Part shown: piece after piece, positions 27,317 to 29,466 of the stretch
Layout: every line of letters starts with the position of its first letter
Numbering within the stretch: position 1 is the stretch's first letter
Origin: the human T2T-CHM13v2.0 reference genome, Homo sapiens
Direction: 5' to 3' (one strand)
NCBI RefSeq assembly: GCF_009914755.1
Contig: NC_060947.1
Length of the DNA: 64,000 nt
Position numbers and translations under genes: made by a program
The notes under the pieces: generated by a model
Told to the model about the DNA's origin: nothing
Database searches by the model: none
Seen by the model: the letters and a program-made list of their open reading frames with translations, nothing else

Positions 27317-27829
27317 CTACCCAGAAATTATTTCATCACGATTTCTTCTATTCCACCTGTGCCTGAAGCAATTGTAGTGACAATAACGTGATAGAAAGGA
27401 CACAGTGCGGGTACTCCATTCTATGTTTGGGTCATGTGTCTCAAGCCAATGGATTCCAATAATCAGAGGGTATCGTGGTGCATGAATAATGTCAAACTGG
27501 AGCTCTTCAACATGGTTTCCAATTTGAACTTGGACAGGTGATGTTTCCTTAGTTATGGGTCCATTAATAAGTGGATGGCCGTCGACAGTTTCCAGCATCA
27601 GAGGGAAGATATTACTGCGGATGGGCAGCTTCTCTCGAAGAACCACAGTATGATCAATGCTGTTTCTGTAGGAGCCTGAATCTACCATTGCTTGCTCAAA
27701 GAATTATCTTCTTCCCAGTTGGATTTCAACAGTAAGCCATAGTGTATGAGACATGGATATTGGAAGAGAGGGGGACGCATATTTGTAGATTGGCCCACGT
27801 GGGGTCCCCCTTACTGGCAGGCCTGGATG
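27317..27829 (-). pseudogene. RTL3: RTL3 pol-like ORF2 (-1 frame): PEG10-like retropepsin domain, interrupted by one in-frame TAA at 27704-27706
   Basis: The -1 frame reads HPGLPVRGTPRGP...VEIQLGRR*FFEQAMVDSGSYRNSIDH...ETVDGHPLINGPI...PLIIGIHWLETHDPNIEWSTRTVSF. It has a catalytic DSG and a second hydrophobic-hydrophobic-Gly motif, and is colinear with the PEG10 protease as recalled. Confidence 0.88.
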
Positions 27830-27835
27830 TTTCCC
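27769..27835 (-). promoter_or_regulatory. -1 programmed ribosomal frameshift signal: G_GGA_AAC (27835-27829) plus predicted H-type pseudoknot
   Basis: Heptamer correctly phased in the gag frame, spacer ATCCA, stem 1 GGCCTGC/GTGGGCC, stem 2 AGGGGGAC/GTCCCCCT. Confidence 0.85.
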
Positions 27836-29238
27836 GCCTGCAGGGCCTGATGAGGCTTGACAGGGCAATCTCTGGCAAAATGACCAGGATAACCACAGTA
27901 GAGGCATAAGCGGCCTTTGTGCCAACGGACCCATTCAGCTTCACTGATGTGTGGGCAGTTGATTGCAGCCTGCATAGGTTGGTTTTCAGCTGGTGGACTC
28001 TCGGGTCCATCTCCCTCTGCAGAGGAACTTTTCCCTAATGGATTGGGATCAGGCTTCTCTTCCAGGCTGATGCACTGAGTGATGAGATCAGATAGGTTGG
28101 TGGCTGGGCTTGTGTGAGACAGTTCATCTTGTATAGAACTGGCAAGACCTTCTTGAAATTGGATCCAGAGAGTGCTTTCATCCCAGTTCAGCTCTTGAGC
28201 AATGAGGTGGAAGTGGGTTGCTACATGACCCTCCCCTTGGCAGAGTTGATGGATGCACTGGTTGGCATCTTTCATGTTTTCTGGATTATCAAAAGTATCC
28301 TGGAGCACAGGTATGAAACTTTCACATTGCTCCAGTAAGGGGCTTTGGATATCCAGTAAGAGCTGGAACCACCATCCTGCCCTACCTGAGAAGCAATTGC
28401 CAACAAAGCTCACCAGGGCTGCTTCAGTGGGATACAGGTGCCCTCTGACTCTCATGTAACTATACAGCTGAACCAGGAACTCAGGAAGCTTCTGGGAATC
28501 TCCACTGAAGGTTAAAGTGTATTGCAGGGGGAAATCTGTAGCCTCTAACCCAATAGGGGCCTGTGGAAACTCTGAAGCTGCTGATGTCTCCACAACTATT
28601 AGACCCTCCAGGGACTCCTGGGCTGCTGAGAGTTCTAGGAATTCCTGGGCATTTGAAGGCTCCAGAGGCTCCTGGGGAGGTGGAAGCTCAAGGAACTCTA
28701 GCTGTGCTGCAGTTTCCTGGTATTCTGGTGCCTCCTGGGGCTTCTCAATATTTGGGGGATCCTGGGGTTCTGAATTCTTGGGCTCTTGGGCTATTGTGGC
28801 ATCCTGGGTGTTTGCAGGCCCCTGGCCCTCCAAGACTGTTGGGATCTCATGGGCCATTGGAGGTTTCTGGGACTCCCGGGTTGCTGGAGGCGCCAGGGAC
28901 TCTGGGGCTGCTGGGGCCTCCTGGAGTTCCCAGGCTGCTGGGGGTTCCCAGGGTAGAAGATCCTGTGGCTCTGGTGGCTTCTGGGGTTCCTTGAACTCTG
29001 GGGTCTTTTGGGCCTCCCAGGCTGCTGGGGGATTCATGTGCTCTGGGAGCTTCTGGGGCTCCTTGGCCTCTGAGGACTTTCGGAGTAGATCATACTCCTT
29101 GGCTGCTTGGGACTTCTGAAGCTCTGGGATCTGGGCCTGGAGAGCAGCATTTTCTTCCATCAGCCACTGCACTTGAGCCTGCCGAATTTCATTCTCCAAT
29201 TTCAGAACAATATAGGAGGCTGCTAAGTCCTCCACCAT
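27811..29238 (-). CDS. RTL3: Retrotransposon Gag-like protein 3 (ZCCHC5/MART3/SIRH9), 475 aa, domesticated Ty3/gypsy gag
   Basis: Intact intronless ORF with strong Kozak (AAGATGG). N-terminal helix (MVEDLAASYIVLKLENEIRQAQVQWLMEENAALQAQ), capsid-like domain (FSGDSQKLPEFL...AQELNWDE...QEGL) and CCHC knuckle CLYCGYPGHFARDC (27865-27906). Sequence recognised as ZCCHC5/RTL3. Confidence 0.96.
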   Translation of the reverse strand: MVEDLAASYIVLKLENEIRQAQVQWLMEENAALQAQIPELQKSQAAKEYDLLRKSSEAKEPQKLPEHMNPPAAWEAQKTPEFKEPQKPPEPQDLLPWEPPAAWELQEAPAAPESLAPPATRESQKPPMAHEIPTVLEGQGPANTQDATIAQEPKNSEPQDPPNIEKPQEAPEYQETAAQLEFLELPPPQEPLEPSNAQEFLELSAAQESLEGLIVVETSAASEFPQAPIGLEATDFPLQYTLTFSGDSQKLPEFLVQLYSYMRVRGHLYPTEAALVSFVGNCFSGRAGWWFQLLLDIQSPLLEQCESFIPVLQDTFDNPENMKDANQCIHQLCQGEGHVATHFHLIAQELNWDESTLWIQFQEGLASSIQDELSHTSPATNLSDLITQCISLEEKPDPNPLGKSSSAEGDGPESPPAENQPMQAAINCPHISEAEWVRWHKGRLCLYCGYPGHFARDCPVKPHQALQAGNIQACQ

Positions 29239-29466
29239 CTTTTGAGGAAATGGGTATGATTTGACAATTTGCTACCAAGAGAGATTGGGTGGGTGTTTGT
29301 GAGATCCTTCCTGAAAGCTGCTTACAGGCAGATGTCAGGCTCAGTGAGTTTTCCAAGGGGTGGTATTTGGGCCCCGCCAAGGCTGATTATCAAGAGGTCA
29401 CTGGGAGCCTCCGGAGCTCGGCAAGAAGGAGCCTCCGGAGCTCAGTAAGGGGAAGTGTCAGATACA

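What the first reader, a model, noticed from the sequence alone, without database searches (positions are those of the whole stretch)
27769..27835. PEG10-type -1 ribosomal frameshift cassette at the end of the RTL3 gag ORF
Seen in sequence (minus strand): GCG GGA AAC ATC CAG GCC TGC CAG TAA. The heptamer G_GGA_AAC (27835-27829) is phased as X_XXY_YYZ five codons before the gag stop. A 5-nt spacer (ATCCA) follows. Then comes a predicted H-type pseudoknot: stem 1 GGCCUGC (27823-27817) pairs with GUGGGCC (27798-27792; 7 bp, 2 G-U), and stem 2 AGGGGGAC (27811-27804) pairs with GUCCCCCU (27776-27769; 8 Watson-Crick bp). Established: PEG10/Edr uses the same heptamer, a short spacer and a pseudoknot to make Gag-Pol. 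Inference: RTL3 makes a second, recoded protein that standard annotation misses. I recall ZCCHC5 being mentioned as a frameshift candidate, so this may be partly described.
Basis: partly seen in the sequence, partly recalled or inferred. Interest (0 to 1): 0.88.

Follow-up and report, generated by a model that had tools for sequence, protein, structure and literature searches.

The report
Known RTL3 frameshift signal, dead-ended in human
The slippery site and RNA knot at the end of human RTL3 gag are real and match the PEG10 frameshift signal, but the signal is already published and in humans the shifted frame stops before the protease.

Summary
G_GGA_AAC (27835-27829, minus strand) is phased X_XXY_YYZ in the gag frame, five codons before the TAA. 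My own H-type pseudoknot scan picks the same two stems. No shuffle (0 of 1000) and no random window 75-mer (0 of 3000) reaches their score. Human PEG10 has the same layout with matching stems.

The shifted frame is homologous to PEG10 RF2 (43% identity, E 1e-39). In human it stops at a TAA (27706-27704) after 41 codons. That is eight codons before the protease Asp-Ser-Gly, which lies further on in the same frame. So a slip gives gag plus a 41-residue stub (511 aa), not Gag-protease.

This is in print. Frameshifting in ZCCHC5/RTL3 was predicted in 2005 and is reported as shown experimentally (unpublished) in PMC5009743. PMC11011659 and PMC11299033 describe the fusion in mouse and its loss in human and other simians. 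I found no printed description of the RTL3 pseudoknot itself.

Verdict: already known, and probably a relic in human. Interest is low.

The parts
27814..29238 (-). RTL3 gag-like coding sequence (475 aa): Ty3-type capsid plus a CCHC zinc knuckle. Its stop is at 27813-27811.
   Evidence: open frame. Pfam DUF4939 E 2.9e-13, Ty3_capsid E 2.8e-8, zf-CCHC E 2.6e-5.
27829..27835 (-). Slippery heptamer G_GGA_AAC, phased X_XXY_YYZ in the gag frame (Gly469-Asn470).
   Evidence: Same heptamer and same distance to the gag stop in PEG10. Gly-Asn plus 5 residues plus stop in 53 of 53 gag orthologue clusters.
27824..27828 (-). 5-nt spacer AUCCA.
   Evidence: The PEG10 spacer is also 5 nt.
27817..27823 (-). 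Pseudoknot stem 1, 5' arm GGCCUGC.
   Evidence: The GGCC core is shared with PEG10 stem 1.
27804..27811 (-). Pseudoknot stem 2, 5' arm AGGGGGAC. It lies in the loop of stem 1 and starts at the last base of the gag stop.
27792..27798 (-). Pseudoknot stem 1, 3' arm GUGGGCC.
27769..27776 (-). Pseudoknot stem 2, 3' arm GUCCCCCU.
27707..27829 (-). The 41 codons read after a -1 slip (HPGLPVRG...EIQLGRR). From about codon 19 they are homologous to the start of the PEG10 RF2 protease region.
27704..27706 (-). TAA closing the -1 frame, eight codons before the catalytic Asp. The aligned position is a sense codon in PEG10 and in 5 of 5 related reading frames that cover it.
27320..27703 (-). Retropepsin-like reading frame (128 codons) in the same -1 frame. 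Asp-Ser-Gly is at 27682-27674 and the stop at 27319-27317. It lies in the annotated 3'UTR.
   Evidence: Pfam RVP_2 21.4 bits against a cut-off of 20.3, E 2.3e-4, profile positions 36-130 of 136; 45% identity to PEG10, 34% to RTL1..

Best explanation
This is the ancestral -1 programmed frameshift signal of RTL3 (ZCCHC5/Mart3/SIRH9). It is inherited from the same Ty3/metavirus-like gag-pol junction as the PEG10/Edr signal. The mechanism is inferred from the established PEG10 and retroviral model. A ribosome with Gly-tRNA on GGA and Asn-tRNA on AAC meets an H-type pseudoknot 5 nt downstream. Both tRNAs re-pair one base back, on GGG and AAA, and decoding continues with CAU. In mouse and many other mammals this yields a capsid-protease fusion (literature). 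In human the RNA signal is still intact in sequence, so some slipping probably persists. However, the shifted frame is closed by a TAA after 41 codons, inside the protease-homologous region and before its active site. The only possible product is therefore gag residues 1-470 plus a 41-residue tail (511 aa) without protease. The signal is most likely a relic. Shown here: the sequence features, their non-random character, the homology to PEG10, and the stop. Inferred: that slipping occurs in human cells, and that the product has no function.
For: Phased heptamer, 5-nt spacer and stems. The knot score is reached by 0 of 1000 shuffles and 0 of 3000 random window sites. PEG10 (L003) has the same heptamer, the same 5-nt spacer, its gag stop five codons after AAC, and its best-scoring knot uses matching stems: GGCC/GGCC core for stem 1 and GGGAC/GUCCC core for stem 2. 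The two genes lengthen stem 2 to 8 bp on opposite sides. The top Rfam hit on 27835-27770 is the Edr frameshift family RF01090, colinear over model positions 1-66 of 66, though below threshold. PEG10 is the positive control at 99.5 bits. The -1 frame read with X at the stop aligns to PEG10 RF2 at 43% identity over 137 aa, E 1e-39, straight through the X. Of 53 gag orthologue clusters, 52 end Ala-Gly-Asn plus 5 residues plus stop, and the 53rd has Val-Gly-Asn. Literature passages read: PMC5009743 (predicted, and 'experimentally demonstrated', unpublished); PMC11011659 (fusion in mouse, non-overlapping frames in human, protease dN/dS 0.11); PMC11299033 (heptamer conserved in six species, ribosome footprints in the mouse 3'UTR, 'lost in primates').
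Against: There is no experimental or ribosome-profiling datum for the human cassette in anything I could read. Human stem 1 is weaker than PEG10's: -9.8 against -16.5 kcal/mol as isolated hairpins, with two G.U pairs and a 5-nt L2 against 0 in PEG10. Pseudoknot-free folds are not better than shuffles. The Rfam score is below the gathering threshold (17.5 against 45). I could not reach orthologue DNA, so stem covariation is untested. The -1-frame peptide over L3 and the stem 2 3' arm (GPIYKYASPSLP) is conserved in the 2 relatives that cover it, so protein coding could explain part of the sequence conservation. PMC11011659 leaves open that human makes separate capsid and protease proteins.
Confidence: 0.85

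Rival explanations
1. The human cassette is inactive. With stem 1 reduced to 7 bp including two wobble pairs, and a long L2, ribosomes no longer slip above background, and RTL3 makes gag only.
For: Stem 1 is -9.8 kcal/mol against -16.5 for PEG10. The human gag tail differs from 52 of 53 orthologue clusters exactly over the stem 1 5' arm: Cys-Gln where they have Arg-Arg. PMC11299033 states the mechanism is lost in primates.
Against: The heptamer, the spacer and an 8-bp G/C-rich stem 2 are intact. The combined knot score exceeds that of human PEG10 in the same scanner (-33.7 against -30.3). GGGAAAC itself supports some slippage. The papers' 'lost' refers to the fusion protein, not to a measured efficiency.
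Confidence: 0.35
2. Human RTL3 makes a functional second protein. This would be either the 511-aa gag-plus-tail isoform or a separately translated protease (an option offered in PMC11011659).
For: The cassette is intact. The protease frame is still open for 128 codons with Asp-Ser-Gly present. PMC11011659 reports strong constraint on the protease across mammals.
Against: The tail stops before the active site. The protease frame starts at most 7 codons before the catalytic Asp, and its first AUG is 2 codons before it. From general knowledge of retropepsins, it would therefore lack the N-terminal strands that precede the active-site loop. It lies about 100 nt downstream of a 475-codon frame with no evident way for ribosomes to reach it. 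PMC11011659 reports inactivating mutations of one or both domains in many simians.
Confidence: 0.1
3. Chance: a GGGAAAC that happens to lie near a stop codon, with fortuitous complementarity downstream.
For: The heptamer count in the window equals expectation (8 against 7.9). Standard fold z-scores are not significant.
Against: The knot score is unmatched in 4000 controls. The architecture matches PEG10 position for position. The downstream -1 frame is a protease homologue. Gly-Asn plus 5 residues plus stop is found in 53 of 53 orthologue clusters.
Confidence: 0.01

Closest known systems
PEG10/Edr -1 frameshift signal (Rfam RF01090; Shigemoto 2001 and Manktelow 2005 as cited in the papers read)
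   Same: Same GGGAAAC heptamer in the same phase (Ala-Gly-Asn). Same 5-nt spacer. The gag stop is five codons after AAC. Same H-type topology, with stem 1 built on GGCC/GGCC and stem 2 on GGGAC/GUCCC. The -1 frame leads into a homologous Asp-Ser-Gly protease.
   Different: RTL3 stem 1 is a single 7-bp helix with two G.U pairs, whereas PEG10's is 5+5 bp with a 3-nt bulge. L2 is 5 nt against 0, and L3 is 15 nt against 9. Stem 2 is extended on the other side. The Rfam score is 17.5 bits against 99.5. In human the -1 frame ends after 41 codons, whereas PEG10's frame stays open for 388 codons beyond the slip site (402-codon stop-free frame).
Mouse and other mammalian Rtl3/Zcchc5 frameshift (Brandt 2005 as cited; PMC11011659; PMC11299033; PMC5009743)
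   Same: This is the orthologous site. The gag proteins end Ala-Gly-Asn plus 5 residues in 52 of 53 clusters, and the heptamer is reported conserved in six species (PMC11299033).
   Different: In those species the gag and protease frames overlap, so one slip gives a capsid-protease fusion, and mouse shows ribosome footprints in the 3'UTR. In human the frames do not overlap (PMC11011659).
PNMA3 and PNMA5 (Ma3/Ma5) frameshift sites
   Same: They use the same GGGAAAC heptamer followed by a pseudoknot, in a domesticated gag gene. Their shifted frame also encodes no pol domain (PMC5009743, PMC11299033), which resembles the human RTL3 outcome.
   Different: They belong to a different domesticated family. 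I did not examine their sequences here.

Membership tests
Canonical eukaryotic -1 programmed frameshift signal | X_XXY_YYZ heptamer in phase with the upstream frame | tested here: met
   G_GGA_AAC at 27835-27829 in the gag frame.
Canonical eukaryotic -1 programmed frameshift signal | Stable downstream structure starting about 5-9 nt after the heptamer | tested here: met
   In silico only. An H-type knot starts after a 5-nt spacer, and 0 of 4000 controls reach its score. No probing data exist.
Canonical eukaryotic -1 programmed frameshift signal | Measured frameshifting that depends on the heptamer and the structure | not testable with these tools
   The only statement found is 'experimentally demonstrated (unpublished)' for ZCCHC5, with the species not given (PMC5009743).
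Rfam RF01090, Edr gene ribosomal frameshift signal | Score at or above the curated gathering threshold (45 bits) | tested here: not met
   17.5 bits, E 0.36-1, aligned over model positions 1-66 of 66 at 27835-27770. PEG10 scores 99.5 bits. It works like a member and is homologous, but it is not a member by Rfam's rule.
Gag-protease genes expressed by frameshift (PEG10 type) | Gag-like frame with capsid and CCHC knuckle | tested here: met
Gag-protease genes expressed by frameshift (PEG10 type) | Retropepsin with Asp-Ser/Thr-Gly in the -1 frame | tested here: met
   RVP_2 at 21.4 bits against a cut-off of 20.3. 43% identity to PEG10 RF2.
Gag-protease genes expressed by frameshift (PEG10 type) | The -1 frame is open from the slip site through the protease, so that one slip gives the fusion | tested here: not met
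   A TAA at 27706-27704 lies 41 codons after the slip. PMC11011659 says the same.

The most novel reading that the evidence does not exclude
The human cassette still drives efficient -1 frameshifting. The resulting 511-aa gag isoform, carrying a 41-residue stub of the former protease, would have been kept in apes for a function of its own, for example changing capsid assembly, partner binding or turnover. That would be an unannotated recoded human protein, and a case of a frameshift signal outliving the enzyme it once served.
Probability: 0.1. Interest if true: 0.5.

Novelty: already known. Interest (0 to 1): 0.2.

Why it matters
Conserved -1 frameshifting in vertebrate cellular genes is very rare: PMC5644247 lists only PEG10, PNMA3, PNMA5 and ZCCHC5. 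Each site therefore matters for annotation and for screening frameshift-modulating drugs for off-target effects. For human RTL3 the practical point is negative. RefSeq's gag-only model is nearly complete, and the missing product, if made, is a short dead-end extension. The open question is whether a frameshift signal stays active after its downstream enzyme is lost. That can be tested directly with this cassette, but it is of modest reach.

Tried and rejected
- **Pseudoknot-free folding.** Folding 27840-27760 and 27828-27760 gave z -1.45 and -0.45. This says nothing about a pseudoknot, so I wrote a dedicated scanner.
- **Loose genome-wide pattern.** Heptamer, 5 nt, GGCC, 10-30 nt, GGGCC gave 50 hits in the human assembly against 8 for the reversed control. 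The hits include PEG10 and RTL3, but the pattern is too loose to be useful.
- **Orthologue DNA.** No collection here holds other mammals. The supplement of PMC11299033 lists accession numbers only. The supplement of PMC11011659 gave no hits for any term tried. Stem covariation was therefore not tested.
- **Codon threading.** I threaded related protein sequences onto the human codons to infer forced base differences. This rests on three unnamed, partly degenerate copies plus the gag tails, so I use it only as a hint that relatives differ at one or two stem 1 positions and at the last stem 2 pair.
- **Structure prediction.** An AlphaFold2 model of the -1 frame read with X, from an 8-row alignment, had mean pLDDT 46.3. 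It was too poor to use, and I ran no fold search.
- **Solved structures.** A sequence search of solved structures found nothing below E 0.5.
- **Reporter data.** The supplements of the high-throughput frameshift reporter study PMC7297798 contain neither the ZCCHC5/RTL3 names nor the human cassette string in the held text. One file was cut when stored.
- **Papers and records not available.** Manktelow 2005 is not held, and I did not look up Brandt 2005. I cite both only through papers that cite them. Earlier findings of this scan were not open to the session.
- **RTL1.** The RTL1 locus (L004) has no GGGAAAC.

Full report
**Observation**

On the minus strand the sequence reads CAG GCG GGA AAC ATC CAG GCC TGC CAG TAA. 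The stop-to-stop frame 27811..29271 is the RTL3 gag frame and ends ...QAGNIQACQ. Its 475-aa product carries DUF4939, a Ty3-type capsid domain and a CCHC knuckle.

The heptamer G_GGA_AAC (27835-27829) is therefore phased X_XXY_YYZ, five codons before the stop. The 5-nt spacer and both proposed stems are at the stated coordinates. Stem 1 has 7 bp, two of them G.U. Stem 2 has 8 Watson-Crick bp. Loops L1, L2 and L3 are 5, 5 and 15 nt.

**Is it more than chance?**

The heptamer alone is not unusual: there are 8 copies in the window against 7.9 expected. Ordinary folding, which cannot form pseudoknots, is not better than shuffles (z -1.45 and -0.45). It does recover stem 2.

I wrote a scanner for H-type knots that begin 4-9 nt after a site. 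It uses contiguous helices of at least 5 bp and scores them by summed ViennaRNA stacking energy.
- That score is reached by 0 of 1000 dinucleotide shuffles, 0 of 3000 random window 75-mers and 0 of 200 GC-matched ones.
- The other 7 GGGAAAC sites in the window score between 0 and -20.9.

**What lies downstream**

After a -1 slip the reading is ...QAGN-HPGLPVRG..., 41 codons long, ending at a TAA at 27706-27704. The same frame then continues for 128 codons (27703-27320) and contains AMVDSGS. This segment matches Pfam RVP_2 just above its cut-off (21.4 against 20.3 bits). In the human assembly its relatives are PEG10 (45% identity, E 2.4e-32) and RTL1 (34% identity).

Read with X at the stop, the shifted frame aligns to PEG10 RF2 at 43% identity over 137 residues (E 1e-39). 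The alignment runs straight through the X and starts 23 residues before it. So the stop sits inside the protease-homologous region, eight codons before the catalytic Asp.

The aligned position is a sense codon in PEG10 and in 5 of 5 related reading frames that cover it. All three frames carry a stop between gag and the protease frame, as PMC11011659 states.

**Comparison with PEG10**

Human PEG10 (locus L003) reads GCG GGA AAC followed by five codons and TAG. It has a 5-nt spacer. Its best-scoring knot is GGCCC/GGGCC plus GGGACCUU/AAGGUCCC.

The two genes share the stem cores: GGCC/GGCC for stem 1 and GGGAC/GUCCC for stem 2. Each reaches 8 bp in stem 2 by extra pairs on opposite sides of that core. 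This goes beyond mere sequence identity.

Rfam holds the PEG10 element as RF01090. PEG10 scores 99.5 bits. The RTL3 site is the best Rfam hit of its region and is colinear over the whole model (positions 1-66 at 27835-27770). However, it scores only 17.5 bits against a threshold of 45. It is a homologue, not a member by Rfam's rule.

As isolated hairpins, RTL3 stem 1 is weaker than PEG10's (-9.8 against -16.5 kcal/mol). Stem 2 is slightly stronger (-13.7 against -11.2).

**Orthologues**

Only proteins could be reached. Of 53 gag orthologue clusters, 52 end Ala-Gly-Asn plus five residues plus stop, and the 53rd has Val-Gly-Asn at the same place. Most tails read [IMFL]-E-A-R-R, whereas human reads I-Q-A-C-Q. 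The human-specific residues lie over the 5' arm of stem 1.

I threaded these tails, and three related reading frames from unnamed sources, onto the human codons. The result implies that relatives differ from human at one or two of the positions that form wobble pairs in human stem 1, and at the last pair of stem 2. This is a hint of drift in the human lineage, not a test. Orthologue DNA is needed.

One relative has a changed first base of the heptamer together with a changed active-site motif, and looks like a decayed copy.

**What is in print**

I read passages only, not whole papers.
[quoted passage not shown] - PMC5644247 lists PEG10, PNMA3, PNMA5 and ZCCHC5 as the known canonical -1 sites in vertebrate cellular genes.
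- PMC11011659 credits Brandt et al. 2005. It notes that RefSeq does not show the frameshift and finds the protease well conserved (dN/dS 0.11). It concludes that mouse and many other lineages make a capsid-protease fusion by frameshift. In human the two stop-free regions do not overlap, and many simians carry inactivating mutations.
- PMC11299033 finds the GGGAAAC heptamer conserved in six species, with a dip in synonymous variation there. It reports ribosome footprints in the mouse 3'UTR and says the mechanism is lost in primates.
- PMC11402058 and PMC10570562 repeat the point.

I found no printed description of the RTL3 pseudoknot itself. The evidence for that is as follows:
- A search for 'pseudoknot' together with any of RTL3, ZCCHC5, Mart3 or SIRH9 returned 12 papers, of which 11 were listed.
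- Three of the listed papers hold 'pseudoknot' at all.
- In one of them, PMC11299033, I read the passage and it uses the word only generically.
- I did not read the pseudoknot passages in the other two, PMC5009743 and PMC5644247.
- PMC11011659 contains none of the words slippery, pseudoknot or heptamer.
- Brandt 2005 and Manktelow 2005 could not be read, so this absence is not established.

**Mechanism and verdict**

The site is the ancestral RTL3 frameshift signal, homologous to PEG10's. By the established tandem-slippage model, ribosomes paused by the knot would shift from GGA-AAC to GGG-AAA.

In human the RNA elements are intact, so I put the chance of measurable slipping at roughly one half to two thirds. 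The output can only be a 511-aa gag with a 41-residue tail that ends before the protease active site.

The downstream protease frame could start at most seven codons before the catalytic Asp. From general knowledge of retropepsins, it would lack the strands that precede the active-site loop. A separately made active protease therefore seems unlikely to me. This is inference: the structure model was too poor to support it.

The finding is real but already known, and for human it is most likely a relic.

Noticed in passing
window 27320-27703 (-): A 128-codon retropepsin-like reading frame with Asp-Ser-Gly intact sits in the annotated RTL3 3'UTR, in the same frame as the post-slip reading and separated from it by a single TAA. 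PMC11011659 describes it, but the gene table does not show it.
   Followed up: yes
P0054: A rodent 'hypothetical protein' of 369 aa joins the RTL3 protease frame to a KH-domain tail (PF00013). It looks like a chimeric gene model rather than a real fusion.
   Followed up: no
P0055 and P0059: These are reading frames from unnamed sources that look like decayed copies. P0055 runs from the third frame of the cassette region into the protease frame. P0059 has a changed first heptamer base, Asp-Ser-Cys in place of Asp-Ser-Gly, and an early end.
   Followed up: partly
L004 (RTL1, human chromosome 14): RTL1 has its protease homologue inside one 1377-codon open frame and has no GGGAAAC in the 3.3 kb fetched. 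Of the three human relatives with a protease, only PEG10 and RTL3 keep the slip site.
   Followed up: partly
L005 (human chromosome 1, 74.70 Mb): A weak fourth match to the protease frame (E 0.008, 37% identity over 54 residues, one TAG inside). It is probably an old retroelement fragment.
   Followed up: no
window 27726-28034 (-): The third frame is open for 102 codons across the end of gag and the cassette. Nothing suggests it is used, apart from its appearance in the decayed copy P0055.
   Followed up: no
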